Shown: positions 1 to 10,700 of the stretch, piece by piece
Layout: each line of letters starts with the position of its first letter
Position numbering within the stretch: the first letter of the stretch is position 1
DNA from: a virus
Virus record (IMG/VR): IMGVR_UViG_3300046744_000223
Span: 1 to 64,000 of that record
Length of the DNA: 64,000 nucleotides
Reading direction: 5' to 3' (one strand)
Notes under the pieces: model-generated
Told to the model about the DNA's origin: nothing
Databases searched by the model: none
What the model saw: only the letters and a program-made list of their open reading frames with translations
Program-made: the position numbers and the translations under genes

Positions 1-2197
1 CAGTTACACCTTGAGGACCTTTATCACCTTGTGGGCCAGTAGCACCTTGTGGACCAGCAACACCTTGGGGGCCATCAGCACCTTGAGGACCAGTTTGACC
101 TTTTTGACCTTTATCACCTTGTGGGCCAGTTACACCTTGAGCACCTTGTGCACCTTGTGGGCCAGTTCCACCTGTTAAACCTTGAGCACCTTGGTCGCCC
201 TTTTGACCTTTATCACCATCTGCGCCTGTTCCACCTTTTTGACCTTTATCACCTTGTGGGCCAGTTACACCTTGAGGACCTTTATCACCTTGTGGGCCAG
301 TAGCACCTTGAGGGCCATCAGCACCTTGAGGGCCTGTTGCGCCAGTTCCACCTTGTGAGCCGGTAGCTCCCTTTTGACCTTTTGGTTGAGTTGGACCGGT
401 TGGGCCTACCGCACCTTGTGGGCCGGTATCACCTTGAGGACCTGTTGCGCCAGTTCCACCTTGTGAGCCAGTAGCTCCCTTTTGACCTTTAGGGCCTGTT
501 GGGCCAGTAGCACCTTGTGGGCCTGTCCCACCTTGAGGACCTGTTTGACCTTGCGGACCTACTACACCTTGAGGACCTGTTGAACCAGTTCCACCTTTTT
601 GACCTTTTCCACCTTGTGGGCCAGTAGCACCTTGAGGGCCTTTAGCACCTTGTGGGCCAGTAGCACCTTGAGGGCCAGTTGAGCCAGTAGAACCTTTTCC
701 ACCTTGAGCACCAGTTCCACCTTGTGAGCCAGTAGCTCCTTTTTGACCTTTAGGGCCAGGATTTCCTTGAGCACCTTGAGGGCCAGTTAAACCAGTAGGT
801 CCGTTTATACCCTTATCACCTTGTCCACCTTGAGCACCAGTTCCACCTTTTTGACCTTTATCACCTTGTGGGCCAGTAGCACCTTGTGGGCCTTTAGCAC
901 CTTGCGGGCCAGTAGCACCTTGAGGTCCATCTGCGCCAGTAGGACCTGTTGCGCCAGTTCCACCTTGTGAGCCAGTAGCTCCTTTTTGACCTTTTGGTTG
1001 TGTAGGGCCCGTTGGACCAGTAGCACCTTGGGGACCGGTTACACCTTGAGGACCTGTTGCGCCAGTTCCACCTTGTGAGCCGGTAGCTCCTTTTTGACCT
1101 TTAGGACCGGTTGGGCCAGTAGCACCTTGTGGGCCAGTAGCACCTTGTGGGCCTGCTCCACCTTGAGGACCTACCCCACCTTGAGGACCGGTTGAACCAG
1201 TTCCACCTTTTTGACCTTTTCCACCTTGTGGGCCAGTAGCACCTTGAGGGCCTTTAGCACCTTGTGGGCCAGTAGCACCTTGAGGGCCAGTTGAGCCAGT
1301 AGAACCTTTTCCACCTGTTGCACCAGTTGGGCCTGTTGAACCAGTAGCTCCTTTTTGACCTTTAGGGCCAGGATTTCCTTGAGCACCTTGAGGGCCAGTT
1401 AAACCAGTAGGTCCGTTTACACCTTTAGCACCTTGTGAACCTGTTCCACCTTGTGAGCCGGTAGCTCCTTTTTGACCCTTTCCACCTTGTGGGCCAGTAG
1501 CACCTTGAGGACCCGTAGAACCTTTTGGACCATCAGCACCTTGGGGACCGGTTGCACCAGTAGGACCTGTTGCGCCAGTTGGGCCTGTTGAACCAGTAGC
1601 TCCTTTTTGACCTTTAGGGCCTGTTGGGCCAGTTCCACCTTGTGGGCCAGTAGCACCTTGTGGGCCTGCTCCACCCTGTGGACCTACTCCACCTTGAGGG
1701 CCTGTTGAGCCAGTTCCACCTTTTTGACCTTTATCACCCTGTGGGCCAGTAGCACCTTGTGGGCCTTTAGCACCTTGAGGACCATCAGCACCTTGTGGTC
1801 CTTTTGAACCAGTGGAACCCTTTCCACCTGTTGCACCAGTTGGGCCTGTTGAGCCAGTAGCTCCTTTTTGACCTTTAGGGCCAGGATTTCCTTGAGCACC
1901 TTGAGGGCCAGTTAAACCAGTAGGTCCGTTTACACCTTTAGCACCTTGAGGGCCTGTTCCACCTTGAGGGCCTGTTGAACCTTTGGGGCCGGTTGGGCCA
2001 GTTGCACCTTTAGGACCAGTTGCACCATTGTTACCAGTTGGGCCTTGAGGTCCGGTTGGGCCGGTAGAACCACCAGGTCCTTGTGAACCAGTAGCTCCCT
2101 TTTGACCCTGTGCACCTTGAGGTCCTTGAGATCCAGTAACACCTTTATTACCAGCCGTACCCTTTTGACCTTTAGCACCAGTTGGACCAGTTGGGCC
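1..2197 (-). repeat. Collagen Gly-X-Y coding repeat array with higher-order duplications
   Basis: 9-nt periodicity (accttgtgg / gccagtagc). The block encoding [23 protein letters not shown] recurs, with taggtccgtt at 796, 1408 and 1921. Confidence 0.95.
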
Positions 2198-2602
2198 GGT
2201 ATTATGGAAGAGTAATTGACCTACATAATAATTGTGGTCAGGTTCTACTTCTATACTTACTATATCTAACGATTCTTCTACATATTCTAATGATGTGATG
2301 TGTAGGTCGTTGTGTAATTCTTTTTGTTTGTTGAATGCATTTATTGGTGAAACCCACTCACCCATTAGGGTTAAGATTTTAGCATCAACTGATGATTTTA
2401 GTTTAGACCCATCTGAAAGAGTGAATTCTAAATAGGAATCTATGGACCGCGTTCTTACCGAAACAACTTTGTTATCCCTAACACCTACTCCATGTATATC
2501 AAAACCTTTTACTACATCACCAACTTTAATGTCACCAAGTGTTTGGAAACTCCCATTGATGTCTATTAAGGTATCTTTATGTAAACCGTGTATTAATTCC
2601 AT
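1..2602 (-). CDS. Hint (intein-like) domain-collagen triple-helix fibre protein; 3' end outside window, absent from the ORF track
   Basis: Manual translation from ATG 2602 gives [33 protein letters not shown]...[21 protein letters not shown]|[14 protein letters not shown]..., then Gly-X-Y in the same frame to position 2 (about 867 codons visible). AAGGGA lies upstream of the start. Confidence 0.9.
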
Positions 2603-2615
2603 ATCACTTTATCCC

Positions 2616-3395
2616 TTAACTTGTTAACCTAAGTACAATCATCATATTGTACAATTCAGAAGTATTAGTTTTTTTATCAAATTCAAGACTCAATCTATCT
2701 CCGCTACTAAATGAGTAATTTGAAGCCCCAAAGTTAAAGGTTATATTAGTACCTGCACTTTGTAAAGTTTCCGTATTTGTAGTGGATTGTTGCGCACCAC
2801 CATTATATAGTGAAATATCACAATCGTCCGGAACTGAATTAGTTTGTTCGGGTGATACAATTATATCTTCGATGTAACCAGTACATGGTGCTATAAAGGT
2901 AGTGAATGCTCTATTAGGGAGTGATTGTATATCAGATAATCCTGAAAATGCGACATAACCAAAAGGTGAATTTTTCGTATCTATTGTCAATTGTATTGGG
3001 TGGATTTCATTACCAATAGCTACAGCACCTATATCAGAACGAACTTCAGTACCAGTTCTAAAATCTACATTACTATTTGAGTCTAATACTAAGAACTTAT
3101 CAGTATCAGTACCTGCATTACTTAATCCAGTTAATTTTATATCCGGTGTAGTAATTTGTTGAGTTACATCCATTGACCCGGTAAATCCATGGGTATCATT
3201 AGAAGTATCACCAAATTGGGTTGACCCACTACTAAATGTGGTAGTCTTATGTGTTACCGATGAACTTACTATATAAGACTCAGCCGTTAGTGTTCCAGTT
3301 ACTACTAATGAACCTGTAATAGATAAATCACCAGTGGTGTTTATACCACCTGATTGTACCTGAAGTCCATTCTTTATTACAAATTTATTTGACAT
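2616..3395 (-). CDS. Virion fibre-associated structural protein
   Basis: Ser/Thr/Gly-rich. Contains ITGSLVVTGTLTAE, SSGSTQFGD and a TDTDKFLVLDS motif shared with the adjacent gene. Confidence 0.6.
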   Translation of the reverse strand: MSNKFVIKNGLQVQSGGINTTGDLSITGSLVVTGTLTAESYIVSSSVTHKTTTFSSGSTQFGDTSNDTHGFTGSMDVTQQITTPDIKLTGLSNAGTDTDKFLVLDSNSNVDFRTGTEVRSDIGAVAIGNEIHPIQLTIDTKNSPFGYVAFSGLSDIQSLPNRAFTTFIAPCTGYIEDIIVSPEQTNSVPDDCDISLYNGGAQQSTTNTETLQSAGTNITFNFGASNYSFSSGDRLSLEFDKKTNTSELYNMMIVLRLTS

Positions 3396-3443
3396 TTTAT
3401 TTCCTCGTGTTTTTCACTTTCCAAACTTAGGATTTAATTTATT

Positions 3444-5351
3444 TTATATACTATACATACGTTCTACGTTAAACAAAATAGTCCCACCACCGGCGGATGT
3501 TATCGATAATGTTAACACACCGCTAGATGCTGTTGCTGAGAATTGAGCTGGACTTGTACTTCCAGTTCCAATATCAGTTGTACTATATTCGGTCATCGCT
3601 ACCTCGTTACCACTAACAACAATAGTTAATTGTCCAGAACGTATTGCACTACCCTCTGAAATATTGTAATGTATATGGAAAGACGAACCCACTTTTTGAT
3701 AAATTACATGAGTGCCTACTCCATACTGATGACCTTCAGCTGTTTTTTCTACTGAGTTTGATGTAGTTCCGTGATTTGTATGAATTGTGAGAGACGCTGT
3801 AAATGGTGCTGGAGTTCCAGGGATATTATCTCCAAGTTCCAAACCATTCCCTTTGAAGGCTGGTGATTTAAGTGTATCAACTTGGTTACCACCCCATTGG
3901 TCAAATTGAAAACCTTGACCATATTTATTTTCGAGGATTTTAAAAGCAGAATCACCTTTAATTCGGGCAGTATTAGACCAAATAGCTAATCTATTAGATG
4001 ATGCTCCAGTATCATTTATAACGTAATTACCACTAGCAGCATCAAGCCCAGCAATATCACTTGCAATTGATGATGATAGTGAAGTAACACCTATATCATC
4101 ATATAATTGCGTACCACTTCTATATTTAAGTTGGTCACCATCCAATACAACAAACTTGTCAGTATCACTTGTTGCTTGTACTTGCGTATCTGTTTTAATA
4201 TTAACCGAACCACTAAATTGTGCTGGTCCGATATTTTTTAATGTATTAGAACCTGATATAGTTAATGATCCAGTTATAGAAAGACCACCTTCAGCAATAA
4301 TAGCTGGTTTTATTCTAAGAGTATTTGCACCATATGGGTTTGTTAGTCTACCAATCGAATAAGCATCACTAACATCAGTTCTCATTTTAATTTGAGCTGA
4401 TGTTGGTGTTGTACCATGTGCTCTAAGACCTACTATGGTAGCACTTTCTTGTTCCATTGATAGGAACGAATCATATTGTGGATTTGAAACATCACCACTT
4501 GAACCAGAACCCACAATAATTTGCATTGCAGCTGTTCCCGAAACACTTGGGTCATTGATTACATTAAACTGACCATGGTGTACTAACACATCACCGGTAG
4601 TTATATTTTTATTTAACTTTAACCGAACTGAACTCGTTATAGCACTTGTTGAACTAAAGAATGGAATCTCAGTTGCTGCACCACTAAGGTTAGAAGCGCC
4701 ACTACCACCAATATCTGAAAGAACCTCAGTGCCGGTACGATAGTCTACGTCACCATTAGAGTCTAATACCAAAAACTTGTCAGTATCAGTTGTTGCGTGG
4801 TTTACGTTACCAATGTTAAGAGTTGCGGATGTATGTAGGTCATCGTCAAATTGAAATCTACCATTGGTACTAGACCACTGTAAAGACACATCAGCCCCAT
4901 CAATATAAATACCTGAACCATTAGCGGCCGTAGGATTAGCTGACCCACTTGCTATTTTTATAAGTTTATCTTGAACATTAAGCTCAGCTACTTGTAGGTC
5001 TACTTTACTACCTAATACTGTAAGGTCACCTGTTAATGTTAAACTATCAAATGTAGGTGAATCTGCGGATTGTAAGCCAGTATCTACATCAGAATTAACA
5101 CCATTTATGGTAGCTCTAACAGTACCTTGAGATGGTGATGAGAATGTAGACCCACTAAGTACACCTTCAGTATTTAATTTGAGTTTGACATCAGAATCAC
5201 CATAGGTTAATGTATCCAATGATGCTAATGAAGCTGATACGCTTCCCCAATCATTGATTGTAATATCGGTGGAGTTTATTCCACCTGATGATGTAATTTG
5301 ATTTAAAATTGCATCACTACCGGAGGTGATGACTTTTTTCCAATTCGGCAT
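3444..5351 (-). CDS. Tail fibre-like structural protein
   Basis: N-terminus MPNWKKVITSGS, fibre-shaft motif LTGDLTVLG...LNVQDKLI, and two DTDKF(L/V)VLD motifs. Confidence 0.65.
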   Translation of the reverse strand: MPNWKKVITSGSDAILNQITSSGGINSTDITINDWGSVSASLASLDTLTYGDSDVKLKLNTEGVLSGSTFSSPSQGTVRATINGVNSDVDTGLQSADSPTFDSLTLTGDLTVLGSKVDLQVAELNVQDKLIKIASGSANPTAANGSGIYIDGADVSLQWSSTNGRFQFDDDLHTSATLNIGNVNHATTDTDKFLVLDSNGDVDYRTGTEVLSDIGGSGASNLSGAATEIPFFSSTSAITSSVRLKLNKNITTGDVLVHHGQFNVINDPSVSGTAAMQIIVGSGSSGDVSNPQYDSFLSMEQESATIVGLRAHGTTPTSAQIKMRTDVSDAYSIGRLTNPYGANTLRIKPAIIAEGGLSITGSLTISGSNTLKNIGPAQFSGSVNIKTDTQVQATSDTDKFVVLDGDQLKYRSGTQLYDDIGVTSLSSSIASDIAGLDAASGNYVINDTGASSNRLAIWSNTARIKGDSAFKILENKYGQGFQFDQWGGNQVDTLKSPAFKGNGLELGDNIPGTPAPFTASLTIHTNHGTTSNSVEKTAEGHQYGVGTHVIYQKVGSSFHIHYNISEGSAIRSGQLTIVVSGNEVAMTEYSTTDIGTGSTSPAQFSATASSGVLTLSITSAGGGTILFNVERMYSI

Positions 5352-5370
5352 ATCCTTTTCCTAATTTGCG

Positions 5371-5410
5371 GTTGGTAACATTTTCATGCCCACTTCTCTT
5401 TCGAGCCAAC
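5371..5410 (-). promoter_or_regulatory. Candidate structured RNA (three-way junction) in 5' leader
   Basis: Minus strand reads GUUGG-CUC GAAA GAG-AAGUG-GGCAU GAAA AUGUU-A-CCAAC. Confidence 0.5.
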
Positions 5411-5506
5411 AACCAGGTTTATGTTTGATTAATCTCTTATAAATAGTTTACTATAAAATAAAAACCACATAGATAATTCAGATTTGATAGTAGATTGGTT
5501 TATAAT

Positions 5507-5536
5507 AAAAAAATCCCCTACTTTTGTAGAGGATTC
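5507..5536 (-). terminator. Rho-independent terminator
   Basis: Minus strand GAATCCTCTAC-AAAA-GTAGGGGATTT followed by a T run, directly after stop 5542. Confidence 0.75.
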
Positions 5537-5541
5537 TTAGA

Positions 5542-5733
5542 TTATTCTTTTGTAATGATGTCACCCTTTTTAGGGCGTTCACTTATGGGTAGTTCTAATA
5601 AGTCAAGTTCCATTTGAACTTTTGCCATTATACCTGTGATTACAGGCGCTTCCTTACCACGAATTTCCATTTTGTTTAATGCAATTTGGACTATCTTCCA
5701 ATCACTTGCATTTAATCCTTCGTAACTTTTCAT
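5542..5733 (-). CDS. Small protein, possible fibre assembly chaperone
   Basis: 63 aa, between fibre genes, resembles the adjacent small ORF. Confidence 0.5.
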   Translation of the reverse strand: MKSYEGLNASDWKIVQIALNKMEIRGKEAPVITGIMAKVQMELDLLELPISERPKKGDIITKE

Positions 5734-5740
5734 AATTAAA

Positions 5741-5935
5741 TTAACTTAATTTTTTAATTTCGTTTTGAATCTTCATAGCTAGTTTGAATACTGACTCAAC
5801 TTGCTTACCTTTAAATGAAGCTTCACCCAATCCGATAAGAAGGGCCTCAAGCTCACCCTTAGTGAGCTTGAGGTTTGCCTCTTCATCATTTTGAGTTTTC
5901 TTGTTGGACAATCCCAACTTTTTATGTAAACTCAT
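5741..5935 (-). CDS. Small protein, possible fibre assembly chaperone (start revised to MSLHKK)
   Basis: ATG at 5935 avoids overlap with the upstream gene. Core LTKGELEALL...FKGKQVE...KIQ. Confidence 0.55.
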   Translation of the reverse strand: MSLHKKLGLSNKKTQNDEEANLKLTKGELEALLIGLGEASFKGKQVESVFKLAMKIQNEIKKLS

Positions 5936-5960
5936 ATATAACCATTTCAACATTAATAAA

Positions 5961-7037
5961 TTACGCTGTTTGAATCCAAATACACTCACCATTATCTACA
6001 GCGATAGTACCCACACCTTGGAATGTTGCTGCGGCCATATTATGAGAACCAGCACCAGCCATTACTTGGATGTTACCTAATTTAGATGCAGCTGTTGCTG
6101 TAACGTCACCCGCTTCAACATCTGCAGCGTAAGAAAATACTGAATCACTATCATCATAGAATATAGCTGAACCAGTATTGATATCAGTAGTGTTAGCACC
6201 ACCGAAAATGATACCGGTATCACCACTAGCTGAACCAGAATTCAATAAAATGAATGCGTCTTCTACGTTCAAGTTTGCTACGTTCAATTCAGTTCTTGTA
6301 CCTTCAACTGTAAGATTACCCGTAAGTCTTAAATCGGCGAATACAGGCGAATCGGTTACTTCAACACCTAAACCGATGTTAGCATTTGAACCAACACTTA
6401 CTTTACCTTGACCCGTTGAAGATGCAGCTACAGTTGTCGCTGTATCAGCATTACCAGTCAAATCACCAGTTACATCACCAGTTACATCACCAGTTAGGTC
6501 ACCAATTATTTCAACAGATGCAGATATGATAGAAGCGGTTACTTCGGTTAGATTGATTTTACTGTCTAAGTTTACAGTTATCTCATTACCTGAACCAGCA
6601 GTAGTAATGTTAGTACCACCTGCAATGTCAAGTGTTTCTGCATTAGTAATACTTAATACACCACCACTATCACCTTGGATATCTAAATCATAAGTTGCAG
6701 CGGTTAGGTTAGCGATATCTACAGCGATAGATGCTGATGTTTCAGTAAGATTTTCTACGTCACCAAATGCTACGTAAGATGCAGTATCAGCAGTACCATT
6801 TACATCACCTTGGAATGATGCAGTTACAGAGTTAAATTGAACATCATCACCTGATGTCAATCCTAAGTCAAGTTCAGTTAGTACACCATTGAATGATGCA
6901 GTAAACTCACCTTGAGCAGTAGAGCTTACAGATGATGCTGATATAATTCCCTCACCTGCGCTTGATAAATAATTTGAGTCATTTTTTAAATCCGAGATAT
7001 TACTACCGGATACAATGACCTTTTTCCATGTTGCCAT
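5961..7037 (-). CDS. Tail fibre-like protein, paralogue of 3444..5351
   Basis: MATWKKVIVSGS start, GDLTGDVTGDVTGDLTGNADTA repeats, LTGNLTVEG...LNVEDAFI. Confidence 0.7.
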   Translation of the reverse strand: MATWKKVIVSGSNISDLKNDSNYLSSAGEGIISASSVSSTAQGEFTASFNGVLTELDLGLTSGDDVQFNSVTASFQGDVNGTADTASYVAFGDVENLTETSASIAVDIANLTAATYDLDIQGDSGGVLSITNAETLDIAGGTNITTAGSGNEITVNLDSKINLTEVTASIISASVEIIGDLTGDVTGDVTGDLTGNADTATTVAASSTGQGKVSVGSNANIGLGVEVTDSPVFADLRLTGNLTVEGTRTELNVANLNVEDAFILLNSGSASGDTGIIFGGANTTDINTGSAIFYDDSDSVFSYAADVEAGDVTATAASKLGNIQVMAGAGSHNMAAATFQGVGTIAVDNGECIWIQTA

Positions 7038-7136
7038 AATTAATTTTCCTTTGTTTTTGTATTAATACAATTAATTGATATATCGATGTAACTTTTTTAA
7101 AATTTATTTTCTTATTATAAGTATGTTTTTATTATT

Positions 7137-7736
7137 TTAAACATCACCAATACCAAAGTAAAAATTAGATGCTGAATATGCCATTGCACCTTCTTCTACA
7201 TTTGGTAGTGTTGTGAACTCCGTTAATTTAAATAACCCATTATTTACAGTTACAGATCCAGTAATTTGAAGATTATTAGTTGTTGTATAATCGGAACCTA
7301 CTTGTGTGAATATTCCACTACCACCACTACCACCAGAACCAAACCCACTTCTTGCAGCAGATGCTGATATGAATGAATCTGAAATAAATGATGCCGTAGC
7401 TACTGACATTGATGAGGTTTGTGATGCTAGAATAAACGAACCCGTATCATCTGCGGTAAGTGCTCCACTTGCTCCGAGTGTTACTTCATTCCAAGTAAAG
7501 GTATCAGTAAATGTAACTGGTGGATTTGCCGCAGTGATTGTTAACGAATAAAATTTTGATACATCTTGGACAAACATCAACTGCCCATCTTCAACATAGT
7601 TAGAGTGAATGTTTCCCAAATCGCTAAAAGTACTTACACCATATAACGCACCTTTTATCAAATCAATATCAGCTAATACAGTATTTGCTGATTGGGCGGC
7701 TGATGATAAGACTAATTTACTTGTAATTGCTGGCAT
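7137..7736 (-). CDS. Virion structural protein
   Basis: Shares ISASAAxSGFG and xIFTxVGxxYxxxxxLxITGS motifs with the 1731-aa protein. Confidence 0.55.
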   Translation of the reverse strand: MPAITSKLVLSSAAQSANTVLADIDLIKGALYGVSTFSDLGNIHSNYVEDGQLMFVQDVSKFYSLTITAANPPVTFTDTFTWNEVTLGASGALTADDTGSFILASQTSSMSVATASFISDSFISASAARSGFGSGGSGGSGIFTQVGSDYTTTNNLQITGSVTVNNGLFKLTEFTTLPNVEEGAMAYSASNFYFGIGDV

Positions 7737-7750
7737 TTAATTATCTCCTA

Positions 7751-10700
7751 TTATGGTGTAGAATTATCAGGTCTAATGTCTAATAATATATTTGATGAAC
7801 CGGCTACTGGATTTACTGTTGATATTATAATATAATCATCAAATCCATTTACTGCTGAATCTAAGGTTATCTTGTGTATATAACTTTGTTCAGTAGTACC
7901 TAATCCACTACCTATATCTGCGTTGTCAACAGCTACCTCTAAGTTAGAATAACCATTTGAATTGTAACCATCACCCATAATTGTAGGTACATTACTCATC
8001 GAAGACCCACTTGGGATAATTATAGCGACACGGTGTCCTGAATTCTTATTCATTCTACCAAAGGATTCGCTAATATCATATAAGTCACTCATTGATTTGG
8101 AATTCAACAAAGTTGCTGTATAAGAACTACCAAAACTATAAGATAGACTTGTTCCACCCAAACTTGATTGTATTATATCAGCAAATCCGAATCCACTATA
8201 TACAGTAGCGGTTGATAGTGTTGAAGGAACTGCGTTTGTTGCGGCTGAATATCCAAGGGTATTATTGTAGTTTGTAGAAGACAACCCAATATCATAAATA
8301 TAAACAATTGGGGATGCTGCTGGAACTGCTCCAATTGATGATGTTCTTGGGGTGTTTACAAAATCCTCACCATATGCATCGTTAACTGAGACCATGTAAT
8401 GTAAATCAGCTTGACTTGTAACTGAATTGTCAGCGGCGTTAATAAAGTATGAAGATGAGTTTACATTTTGTGAGTCCAATGCTACCTTAGATGCGTCTCT
8501 ACCACTAATAGAAGCGCTAAATGGTGTATCGTTTTCAGTATCACTTATAGTAAATGACCCCAACTTAGTACCGGCTGAAACAGGTGCGTTTACAGTTTCA
8601 TTACTAGCAAATGTTACACTTGGGTTTACATTATTTCTAACTTCAATTGTTATAGTCTCTGCCCCTGCGTTTCCATATTGGTCAACCCATGTTATAGGTG
8701 CTGTGAAGTTTGCTCCATTTACGTATGAACCACTTACATTATCTTCAATAGTTAATATACCAGTTGAAGTTACGTGTACAAGCGAACTAACAGTTGCAAA
8801 ATTTTGCTCGGATTGACCCCCATAATCTGGAGAATAATTTACAGATAGTTGTGCGGCTGAACCTATCCCATCGGTATCAGTTGTGATGTTAGAACCACTT
8901 AGTGCGGATTCTATTATGTTAAATGAACTTACAGTTAAACTACCACCACCTGCTTGTGATATGGTAATTGCATCAGAGTATACTCCTTGGTTAAATCCAT
9001 GTACATCTTTAACATTTGCGTTATAATTGTATGTTCCTGCTGCTAATGTTCCGTTTGCACGAATCTCAAATGAGTTACCACCAATATAAGATGACGAAAG
9101 ACTCGATGCGTTAGTACCACTTAAATTAAATGTGTTGATATTTAAAGAATCACTCTCAATATCACCCCATGTTAATGTGGTTAGCAATGCATCATCAATC
9201 GCTAAGTTTGTATTTAAATTAGCAGTGGTTTGTGTATCACTTGTTACACTTGGTGCGTTATTCGGAGTAACACTTATTGTGATTGGTTGTGAATTTGGAT
9301 TACCATATTGGTCTGACCATCCGATGGTCGATGTAATAGTGGAACCATCTACATTACTACTACCACTAATATTATTTCCAACTGTCAGTACACCAGTCGA
9401 TGAACCAACTGAGATAAATGGGTTGTCTGAAGTAAAGTTTTGTGCAACCGGCGACCCATAACTCGGTGAATACGTTACACTCAAAGTTTTAGCAGTACCA
9501 ATACCAGTTGTGGTATTTGTAATACCATCGCCATTTGTAGCAGATTCAATAATAAACAAATTACCAGGAGATGTTAGAGTACCATTGTCAGCTTGTGCGA
9601 TTGTGATGTCATCTTTATAAACACCAGTTCTAAATCCATGTTCATCTTTGATACTTGCTGTGAATGAAATATCTCCCGCCGATTGGTTACCATCTGCATA
9701 TAATCCAAAATTATTAGAACCATCGTATGAACTTGATAAGTTAGAAGCGCCAGTGCCTGTTAAAGTGAATGAAGATACATTCAATGCATCACCTTCAGTA
9801 TCAGTCCACTTTATAGTGGATAATAGATTACCATTAGTTGCCTGATTGGTATTTCTATTTGTAGAAGTAAGTTCTGCGGCTGTAGGGGCGTTATTGATTG
9901 TTAGAGTAATACTAACTGAACCACTACCTATGTTATCAAATTGGTCTCTATAAGTAATATTTGAACTAATTGTTCCTGGATAGTCATCACCACTACCACT
10001 AATGTTAGTCCCAACACTCACATTACCATTACTCGCGACACTAAGTTGTGCGTTCGATGATGTGAATGATGCAACTGCTGCTGAATTATATTGTGGTGAG
10101 TATGTTACTGACAACTTAGCCTGAGTTCCAGTTCTACCATTTGAGTTAGTAACAACATTATCACCAGTTTCAGCCGATTCGATTACATAAAATACACCAT
10201 TTGCACCAGGAGTACCAAGTCCCGCTTCAACGATTGTAAATGAAGAACCCGATGTTGAGATATTACCATAACTATCAGCGATACTTGCAGTAAACTCGTA
10301 AGTAGTAGACCCACTCAAATTGGTTAAAGCACTTACTTCATAAGCATCACTATTTCGTGATGCAGTTAATTGACCACTTGGGTCAGTAAATGAGAATTCA
10401 CTATGGTCAATAGTATCACCAATACCAAATTGAGGTTCCGTGAATGAAATTACACTTAATATATTTGATGGTCTAGCACCATTTGTGTTTAGATTAGCAG
10501 ATGTATCAGTAAATACGATTGAGTATGGCTGATTATCAGTAATCGTTAGAGTATGGTCTCTATATTGTTTTGTAGTTTCAAATGAAGTTTCAGATGCAGT
10601 GATTTGTATAGCCACAGTGTCACTATCTGCGAAGTGTAAGTTACCACTAATAGCAGTATCCACTTCAAGAGTTACACTTGAACCCGTATAACTTGTTGCG

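What the first reader, a model, noticed from the sequence alone, without database searches (positions are those of the whole stretch)
1..2602. Unannotated Hint-collagen fusion: a self-removing intein-like pro-domain on a giant phage collagen fibre
Seen: the ORF from ATG 2602 (missed by the track because it leaves the window) starts with about 134 aa ending [21 protein letters not shown] (H133-N134, Asn codon 2203-2201). T135 follows, then more than 240 Gly-X-Y triplets. The start [21 protein letters not shown] fits intein block A. Known: Hint domains need Cys/Ser1 and the block-B TxxH His for N-terminal cleavage, and the block-F His plus terminal His-Asn for C-terminal cleavage by Asn cyclisation. 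Seen: the Cys1 position is Gly, block B reads SSVDAKIL with no His, and there is almost no N-extein, while the block-F His and HN|T are intact. Inference: this is a domesticated C-cleavage-only Hint that removes itself exactly at the collagen boundary. It could be an N-terminal folding or trimerisation pro-domain, mirroring C-terminal S74 fibre chaperones, or it could expose an N-terminal Thr for attachment to another virion protein. I know of no description of this architecture but cannot confirm novelty.
Basis: partly seen in the sequence, partly recalled or inferred. Interest (0 to 1): 0.85.

Follow-up and report, generated by a model that had tools for sequence, protein, structure and literature searches.

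The report
Self-cutting Hint cap on phage collagen
A marine T4-like phage starts a very long collagen-like fibre protein with an intein-type (Hint) domain that has lost the residues for cutting at its front end but strictly keeps those for cutting at its back end, so it most likely removes itself from the fibre; cleavage has not been tested.

Summary
ORF 2602..2 (minus strand) encodes MELIH, a 129-residue Hint core ending in His133-Asn134, then Thr135 and 244 in-phase Gly-X-Y triplets, and runs off the contig. The fold prediction (pLDDT 88) and profile searches place residues 6-134 in the Hint superfamily. The nearest relatives are type-A BIL and PT-HINT autoprocessing domains.

Among 22 distinct orthologues (43-99% identity, uncultured ~170-kb phages), the block F His, the terminal His-Asn and Thr+1 are invariant. 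Position 1 is Gly or Ala (Ser in three further sequences) and the block B His is never present. dN/dS is 0.13-0.23. Every complete orthologue starts with the Hint, and no Hint-free allele was found.

I read it as a fixed, non-mobile Hint that cleaves only at its C-terminus (confidence 0.65). Why it is removed is unknown.

Two corrections:
- The gene is incomplete in this assembly. The collagen at the other contig end belongs to a second, adjacent collagen gene, so joining the contig ends gives a false 1214-residue ORF.
- Relatives carry no second Hint or receptor domain at the C-terminus, only a domain of about 40 residues.

This scan has already reported the same family on other genomes. I found no paper describing it.

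The parts
2612..2617 (-). SD-like AAGGGA, 9 nt upstream of the ATG; it overlaps the TAA stop (2618-2616) of the upstream 259-aa gene
   Evidence: Read from the sequence
2588..2602 (-). Five-residue leader MELIH, in the place of an N-extein. Ile4 and His5 are invariant in the family
   Evidence: An in-frame stop lies 0-8 codons upstream in most orthologues
2201..2587 (-). Hint core Gly6-Asn134. Gly replaces the position 1 nucleophile, Ala74 sits at the block B His position, and Ser116 at block F:4. His123 (F:13), His133 (G:6) and Asn134 (G:7) are intact
   Evidence: AF2 pLDDT 87.9; Foldseek TM 0.76-0.82 to the NpuDnaE intein and E 1e-9 to BIL2 6y75; profile vs PDB E 5e-13; conservation
2198..2203 (-). 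Predicted scissile junction Asn134|Thr135 (AAT ACC)
   Evidence: HN|TGP is invariant in 22 distinct orthologues while their codons vary
2..2197 (-). Collagen-like region Gly136-Thr867: 244 in-phase triplets, Lys only in the Y position (50 vs 0), Thr 96 times in Y. It runs off the contig start
   Evidence: PF01391 on orthologues
2616..3395 (-). Upstream co-oriented 259-aa fibre-like gene, conserved in synteny and carrying the TDTDKFLVLD motif

Best explanation
Residues 6-134 form a fixed, non-mobile Hint (Hedgehog/intein) domain that can act only at its C-terminal junction. It has no nucleophile at position 1 and no block B His, and Ser replaces the block F:4 Asp, so it cannot start splicing or cut at its N-terminus. 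It keeps His123 (F:13), His133 (G:6) and Asn134 (G:7), the residues that inteins use for Asn cyclisation. The inferred reaction has three parts. The Asn134 side chain attacks its own carbonyl. The Asn134-Thr135 bond breaks. A ~15-kDa Hint carrying a C-terminal succinimide is released, and the collagen chain now begins Thr-Gly-Pro. The domain would therefore be a self-removing N-terminal pro-piece of a head or neck fibre 230-350 nm long. The fibre is probably trimerised by its small C-terminal domain and modified by the neighbouring 2OG oxygenase and glycosyltransferase genes. Shown here: the fold, the residue pattern, purifying selection, the fixed N-terminal position and the synteny. Inferred: the cleavage itself, its timing, and the purpose of removal (masking or solubilising the N-terminal end during assembly, or exposing it for docking).
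For: The Hint fold is supported by the AF2 model (pLDDT 87.9, pTM 0.81), by Foldseek matches to BIL2 6y75 (E 1e-9) and the NpuDnaE intein (TM 0.76-0.81), and by the family profile against PDB, which finds BIL and mini-intein chains at E 5e-13 to 1e-10.

The conservation pattern fits C-terminal cleavage only. In 22 distinct sequences of 43-99% identity, S116, E118, E120, D122, H123, N124, H133, N134, T135, G136 and P137 are invariant. Position 1 is G (18) or A (4), and Ser in L074, P0018 and P0020. The block B:10 position is A/V/S/I/L and never His. Synonymous codons vary at all these residues, and dN/dS is 0.13-0.23.

The domain is fixed rather than mobile. All 22 loci start at the Hint. All 12 ORFs that carry the A-type C-terminal domain and have a complete 5' end begin with the Hint.

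There is precedent. The nearest non-phage relatives are PT-HINT and BIL domains, some with Gly at position 1 and a terminal HN, upstream of Ntox toxin modules. HINT in that position is interpreted as an autopeptidase that releases the downstream module (PMC3482391).

The residue roles come from PMC4031507: F:13 His and G:6 His promote Asn cyclisation, and F:4 Asp can hold Asn cyclisation back until the branched intermediate forms.
Against: No experiment or proteomic datum shows cleavage. In many inteins Asn cyclisation is slow unless earlier splicing steps have occurred, so an intact HN does not guarantee activity. Thr+1, Ile-2 and His-1 are invariant, yet simple Asn cyclisation does not require them; they hint at a further or different function. 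The paralogous N-domain of the second collagen keeps the terminal HN in 7 of 8 sequences but lacks the block F His, so HN may be retained partly for structural reasons.
Confidence: 0.65

Rival explanations
1. The Hint is a retained pseudo-enzyme. It is not cleaved and acts as a globular adaptor that anchors or caps the N-terminal end of the collagen trimer on the capsid or neck.
For: The whole domain is under purifying selection. The leader residues Ile4 and His5 and much of block A are invariant, although C-terminal cleavage does not need them. The collagen-B paralogue keeps HN without the block F His. Earlier notes of this scan report conserved dead Hint copies in phage fibre operons (not checked here).
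Against: Conservation is strongest on the Asn-cyclisation residues and the +1 junction. The N-terminal catalytic positions are free to vary (G/A/S at position 1; A/V/S/I/L at B:10). A purely structural domain has no evident need for invariant H123, H133, N134 and T135 across 43% identity with varying codons.
Confidence: 0.22
2. Class-2-like protein splicing: Thr135 attacks the His5-Gly6 bond directly, the Hint excises, and MELIH is ligated to TGPTG.
For: Thr+1 (a possible nucleophile), Ile-2 and His-1 are invariant. Class 2 inteins splice without a position 1 nucleophile (PMC4031507).
Against: The block B His that activates the N-terminal scissile bond is absent in every member, and the F:4 Asp is replaced by Ser. 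No Hint-free allele exists that would show MELIH-TGP to be the functional product. A 3-7-residue N-extein is an unlikely cargo.
Confidence: 0.05
3. A decaying remnant of a once mobile intein, or an artefactual ORF in repeat DNA.
For: The splicing residues are degenerate. The Pfam matches fall below the gathering cut-off (16.8 vs 35.8 bits).
Against: dN/dS is 0.13-0.23. There are 29 invariant columns. The position is fixed in all orthologues. There is no homing endonuclease. Synteny is conserved across phages with 37-89% identical neighbouring genes.
Confidence: 0.02

Closest known systems
Type-A bacterial intein-like (BIL) domains (C. thermocellum BIL, PDB 2lwy; Tetrahymena BUBL BIL2, PDB 6y75/6tmm)
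   Same: Same Hint fold, and the best profile and Foldseek matches. C-terminal His-Asn. Fixed and non-mobile, with no endonuclease. Cleavage products dominate over splicing (PMC4031507).
   Different: BIL-A domains keep Cys1 and form an N-terminal thioester, and they lack a +1 nucleophile. Here position 1 is Gly, the block B His is missing and Thr+1 is invariant. BILs sit inside variable bacterial or ciliate proteins, not at the extreme N-terminus of a phage collagen.
PT-HINT (Pfam PF07591), the HINT autopeptidase of polymorphic toxins
   Same: The nearest sequence relatives outside the phage family. Some have Gly or Gln at position 1 and a terminal HN, and some sit directly after a signal peptide (P0069, P0055, P0060). 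Their inferred role is autoproteolytic release of whatever lies downstream.
   Different: The downstream cargo is a toxin, not a collagen fibre. The window protein has no PF07591 match, and the orthologue L005 scores 17.6 bits against a cut-off of 27.7. The +1 residue is variable and hydrophobic in those proteins.
Engineered C-terminal-cleaving mini-inteins (Cys1Ala variants used as self-cleaving purification tags; my own knowledge, not checked here)
   Same: Same logic: abolish the N-terminal nucleophile and keep HN, so the intein cuts only at its C-terminus and releases the target with a defined N-terminus.
   Different: Those are laboratory constructs that keep the block B His. This one is natural, fixed and under selection.
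C-terminal intramolecular chaperone domains of phage tailspikes and fibres (peptidase S74; my own knowledge)
   Same: A self-removing terminal domain on a trimeric phage fibre.
   Different: Located at the C-terminus rather than the N-terminus. Ser-Lys dyad chemistry and an unrelated fold. It acts as a trimerisation chaperone, which has not been shown for the Hint.
T4 fibritin (wac) with its foldon, and procollagen or BclA N-terminal processing (my own knowledge)
   Same: A long trimeric rod with a small C-terminal domain, encoded next to the neck genes (gp15-like, adaptor, sheath). Procollagen and BclA lose an N-terminal piece during maturation.
   Different: Fibritin is a coiled coil with no pro-domain. 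Procollagen and BclA are cut by separate proteases. The library flags the paper claiming isopeptide attachment of BclA through its new N-terminus as retracted (PMC3104494), so it cannot serve as precedent.

Membership tests
Hint (Hedgehog/intein) superfamily | Hint fold | tested here: met
   AF2 pLDDT 87.9. Foldseek probability 1.00, TM 0.76-0.82 to mini-inteins and BIL domains. Profile E 5e-13.
Inteins (class 1) | Cys/Ser/Thr nucleophile at position 1 | tested here: not met
   Gly6 in the window. Gly or Ala in the 22 distinct sequences; Ser only in L074, P0018 and P0020.
Inteins (class 1) | Block B TxxH histidine | tested here: not met
   SVDA aligns with TKDH of the DnaE intein. The position is A/V/S/I/L in all members.
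Inteins (class 1) | Block F His, terminal His-Asn and a +1 nucleophile | tested here: met
   H123, H133, N134 and T135 are invariant.
Inteins (class 1) | Insertion within a conserved host protein, with intein-free alleles (mobility) | tested here: not met
   The position is terminal, after 2-7 residues. All 12 complete A-type ORFs carry it. There is no endonuclease domain.
Inteins (class 1) | Ligation of the flanking sequences | not testable with these tools
   Needs protein chemistry.
Type-A BIL domains | N-terminal Cys/Ser that forms a thioester | tested here: not met
   Gly or Ala at position 1.
Type-A BIL domains | C-terminal His-Asn | tested here: met
   Invariant HN.
Type-A BIL domains | No nucleophile at +1 | tested here: not met
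   Thr135 is invariant. The definition is taken from PMC4031507.
PT-HINT (PF07591) | Score above the Pfam gathering cut-off | tested here: not met
   The window protein has no PF07591 hit at E<=1. L005 scores 17.6 bits against 27.7. 15 of the 19 members of alignment A1 match at E<=0.1.
PT-HINT (PF07591) | Located directly upstream of a C-terminal toxin module | tested here: not met
   Collagen repeats lie downstream.
Collagen triple-helix repeat proteins (PF01391) | Long uninterrupted Gly-X-Y repeats | tested here: met
   242 of 244 triplets start with Gly. PF01391 E 4e-78 on orthologues.

The most novel reading that the evidence does not exclude
Cleavage is not constitutive. It acts as an assembly checkpoint: Asn cyclisation fires only when the triple helix, zippering from the C-terminal domain, reaches the three Hint domains, or when the fibre docks on the head or neck. 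The newly exposed, invariant Thr-Gly-Pro N-terminus is then the element that engages another virion protein. This would explain why Thr+1, Ile-2 and His-1 are invariant although plain Asn cyclisation does not need them.
Probability: 0.15. Interest if true: 0.8.

Novelty: new variant of a known kind. Interest (0 to 1): 0.6.

Why it matters
If cleavage is confirmed, this would be a natural, evolutionarily fixed counterpart of the engineered C-terminal-cleaving intein tag. It would also be the first N-terminal self-removing pro-domain described for a phage fibre. N-terminal pro-piece removal would join the neighbouring oxygenase and glycosyltransferase genes, giving a tailed phage a maturation route that resembles procollagen. 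It would offer a compact, naturally optimised 129-residue module that has no cysteine in this genome and releases a protein with a defined N-terminus. It would also show that Hint domains have been recruited more than once as one-way autopeptidases, once for toxins and once for fibres.

Tried and rejected
1. I joined the contig ends as a circle to complete the ORF. This gives a 1214-aa frame, which I rejected. The join breaks the Gly-X-Y phase. The repeat types differ on the two sides. The contig-end C-terminal domain (GGYFEW...KLVFKEYGYSSGD) matches the second collagen gene of relatives, not the C-terminus of the Hint-collagen.

2. I searched cultured phages (INPHARED) for the Hint by tblastn and for window DNA by megablast. 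There was no match. The nearest cultured phages by capsid protein lack the whole module.

3. I folded the N-domain of the second collagen. The model was poor (pLDDT 43) and there was no Pfam hit. Its Hint-likeness rests only on hhalign (77%, E 2e-5).

4. I considered a frameshift or readthrough fusion with the upstream 259-aa gene. I rejected it because the frames differ, the TAA stop is followed by an SD-like site, and orthologues have in-frame stops 0-8 codons upstream with variable spacing.

5. The first search with the C-terminal domain returned only collagen-B genes, because the query's first row was of the B type. I repeated it with A-type rows.

6. Literature searches for Hint or intein-like domains together with collagen in phages found nothing relevant.

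7. The promoter and terminator scan of 2400-7800 was uninformative: promoter-like sites were below the shuffled expectation.

Full report
**Observation**

- It encodes MELIH, then Gly6...His133-Asn134 (codons 2206-2201), then Thr135 (2200-2198).
- After Thr135 come 244 triplets in one phase. 242 begin with Gly and two are QPK, with the phase kept.
- The ORF leaves the window at base 1, which is also base 1 of a single 172,940-bp contig.
- An SD-like AAGGGA overlaps the stop codon of the upstream 259-aa gene, 9 nt before the ATG.

**What the N-terminal domain is**

Single-sequence searches are weak. Pfam Intein_splicing gives E 0.006, below the gathering cut-off. phmmer against PDB finds a DnaE intein at E 4e-4. 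That alignment already shows three things:
- SVDA sits opposite block B TKDH, so His is replaced by Ala.
- Ser116 sits opposite the block F:4 Asp.
- DHN sits opposite DHN.

A profile of the family (alignment A1) finds solved BIL domains and mini-inteins at E 5e-13 to 1e-10. A1 includes two more distant BIL-like sequences. The AlphaFold model built on A1 is confident (pLDDT 87.9, pTM 0.81). Foldseek matches Tetrahymena BIL2 (E 1e-9), NpuDnaE, Ssp DnaB, gp41-1 and the C. thermocellum BIL with TM 0.7-0.8. Membership of the Hint superfamily is settled.

**The family**

- An exhaustive HMMER search of 1.84 billion cluster representatives gave 14 hits at E<=1e-10. In every hit that holds the start of the domain, the match begins at residues 1-5 of the protein. 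The next tier consists of ordinary Cys1 BIL and PT-HINT domains inside long bacterial proteins.
- IMG/VR holds 22 orthologous loci, many on contigs of 167-181 kb.
- In all 22 the ORF starts at the Hint. An in-frame stop lies 0-8 codons upstream, except in L020/L021, where 33 ATG-free codons are open.
- Complete proteins are 942-1363 aa. They consist of a Hint of 134-148 aa, 800-1230 aa of collagen, and a conserved C-terminal domain of about 40 aa (ALGT.I...GF.F....GLL.F.SGS...VVLMY.SGS). There is no second Hint and no recognisable receptor-binding domain.
- One subclade has a CxCxxCxC insert in the loop where inteins carry their endonuclease.

**Pattern of conservation**

Among 22 distinct Hint sequences (43-99% pairwise identity), 29 columns are invariant. 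They include S116, I117, E118, V119, E120, D122, H123, N124, G128, H133, N134, T135, G136 and P137, and also I4, H5, L7 and L12.
- Position 1 is Gly (18) or Ala (4). It is Ser in the divergent L074 and in two metagenome fragments.
- The block B His position is A/V/S/I/L and never His.
- Close pairs give dN/dS of 0.13-0.23.
- Every invariant catalytic residue is encoded by varying synonymous codons. Thr+1 uses all four.
- Starting from the other end of the protein, all 12 ORFs that have the A-type C-terminal domain and a complete 5' end begin with the Hint and have HN|TGP.

I found no Hint-free allele, and the domain carries no endonuclease. It is therefore fixed and selected. It is neither a mobile intein nor a decaying remnant.

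**Mechanism**

According to the review PMC4031507, His F:13 and His G:6 promote cyclisation of the terminal Asn, and that reaction breaks the C-terminal junction. N-terminal reactions need the position 1 nucleophile. In at least one intein, Asp F:4 restrains Asn cyclisation until the branched intermediate forms.

This family keeps the residues for Asn cyclisation and has lost those for the N-terminal steps. The best-supported reading is therefore one-way C-terminal autocleavage at Asn134|Thr135. It would release a ~15-kDa Hint and a collagen chain that starts TGPTG. This is inference from residues; nothing here shows the reaction.

Three residues remain unexplained: the invariance of Thr+1, Ile-2 and His-1 is not needed for plain Asn cyclisation. 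That leaves room for a retained-adaptor role, or for triggered cleavage followed by use of the new N-terminus.

**Precedent**

- Six of the more distant relatives have Gly or Gln at position 1 and a terminal HN (P0021, P0042, P0046, P0060, P0069, P0055). All match Pfam PT-HINT; P0042, P0046, P0069 and P0055 score above its gathering cut-off.
- Two carry Ntox toxin domains downstream.
- Three have the Hint directly after a signal peptide, followed by a hydrophobic stretch and a C-terminal module.
- HINT domains in that position are interpreted as autopeptidases that release the downstream module (PMC3482391).

The chemistry and logic are therefore those of a known kind. The cargo (a collagen fibre), the host (a tailed phage) and the extreme N-terminal position are new.

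**Correction about the gene's end**

- Joining the contig ends gives an apparent 1214-aa ORF. The join shifts the Gly-X-Y phase, and the repeats differ on the two sides.
- Relatives have two adjacent collagen genes, separated by 14 nt where I computed it (L009/L031). Collagen A is Hint, collagen, then the A-type C-domain.
- Collagen B has an N-domain of 150-215 aa ending ...VVHN, then a Cys-rich linker of up to about 90 aa (only ~20 residues in one member), then collagen, then a C-domain GGYFEW..KL.FK..GW.SGD..Y.V...SGSF.
- This genome's contig-end C-domain is of the B type. The assembly has therefore lost A's C-terminus and B's N-terminus.
- Many relatives' contigs also break inside the collagen: 10 of 22 and 20 of 32 loci.
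- The B N-domain aligns with the Hint profile over 125 columns with the terminal HN in register (hhalign 77%, E 2e-5). It lacks the block F His, folds poorly with eight sequences and has no Pfam hit. I call it only a probable Hint.

**Context**

The phage is a distant T4-like myovirus. Its capsid protein is 57% identical to that of Microcystis phage Mel-JY01, 55% to Flavobacterium phage immuto and 37% to Rhodothermus phage RM378. Portal, terminase and baseplate wedge genes are recognisable.

The gene order is conserved in relatives (annotations):
1. capsid protein
2. 1731-aa protein
3. several fibre-like proteins
4. collagen A
5. collagen B
6. 2OG-Fe(II) oxygenase
7. GT4 glycosyltransferase fused to a 2OG-oxygenase domain
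8. head-tail adaptor
9. gp15-like sheath stabiliser
10. sheath

The cultured relatives lack everything between the capsid gene and the adaptor gene except a few small genes. The position next to the neck genes recalls T4 wac (fibritin; my own knowledge). It suggests head or neck fibres rather than baseplate fibres. Lys occurs only in the Y position (50 vs 0). That fits the lysine-modification reading that other notes of this scan give for the neighbouring enzymes. I confirmed only their Pfam assignments.

**Novelty**

The searchable library holds no paper that combines intein-like or Hint domains with collagen-like phage proteins. The ESM Atlas cluster that holds the family is an unnamed viral cluster of 53 members annotated only with PF01391. 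Source databases give the homologues no names.

This scan has already reported and followed up the same family on several other genomes, with the same conclusion. The present window is therefore a further member with a truncated gene. I rate it a new variant of a known kind: a Hint autopeptidase recruited as an N-terminal pro-piece of a phage collagen fibre.

Noticed in passing
window 1-2197 and G000:C1:171898-172938 (L024:11898-12938): The contig starts and ends inside collagen repeats of two different genes. The assembly lacks the C-terminus of the Hint-collagen and the N-terminus of the second collagen, and a circular join creates a false 1214-aa ORF.
   Followed up: yes
L029:1555-2274, L031:2449-3063, L034:3049-3753 and other relatives: The second collagen gene of related phages begins with a 150-215-aa domain ending VVHN, which aligns weakly with the Hint profile (hhalign 77%) but lacks the block F His. 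A Cys-rich linker of up to ~90 aa (~20 aa in one member) follows before the collagen, and may form a disulfide knot.
   Followed up: partly
window 2616-3395 and 3444-5351: A ~30-residue motif, TDTDKF[LV]VLD....[YF]R[ST]GT....DIG, occurs three times in the two fibre-like proteins immediately upstream of the Hint-collagen and nowhere else in the genome's ORFs of 80 aa or more.
   Followed up: partly
G000:C1:169561-171862 (L024:9561-11862): Directly downstream of the collagen genes lie a 199-aa 2OG-Fe(II) oxygenase (PF13640) and a 564-aa fusion of a GT4 glycosyltransferase with an OGFOD2-like 2OG-oxygenase domain. In the window's collagen, Lys is found only in the Y position (50 vs 0) and Thr fills 96 Y positions.
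   Followed up: partly
L007:5624-6115, L008, L009, L012, L014 (relatives): A subclade of the Hint domains has a 7-14-residue insert with four or more Cys (for example CSCSNCGCG), at the loop where inteins carry their endonuclease. It may be a small metal-binding knuckle.
   Followed up: no
P0069, P0055, P0060 (metagenome proteins): Bacterial proteins in which a signal peptide is followed at once by a nucleophile-less (Gly or Gln at position 1) PT-HINT domain ending HN, then a hydrophobic stretch and a C-terminal module. This is the same one-way Hint logic in a secreted-protein setting.
   Followed up: partly
whole genome G000: 174 of 175 ORFs of 80 aa or more that survive overlap filtering lie on the minus strand of the 172,940-bp contig.
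   Followed up: no
literature: The paper usually cited for isopeptide attachment of the collagen-like BclA through its processed N-terminus (PMC3104494) is flagged RETRACTED in the library, so it should not be used as precedent for attachment through a new N-terminus.
   Followed up: no
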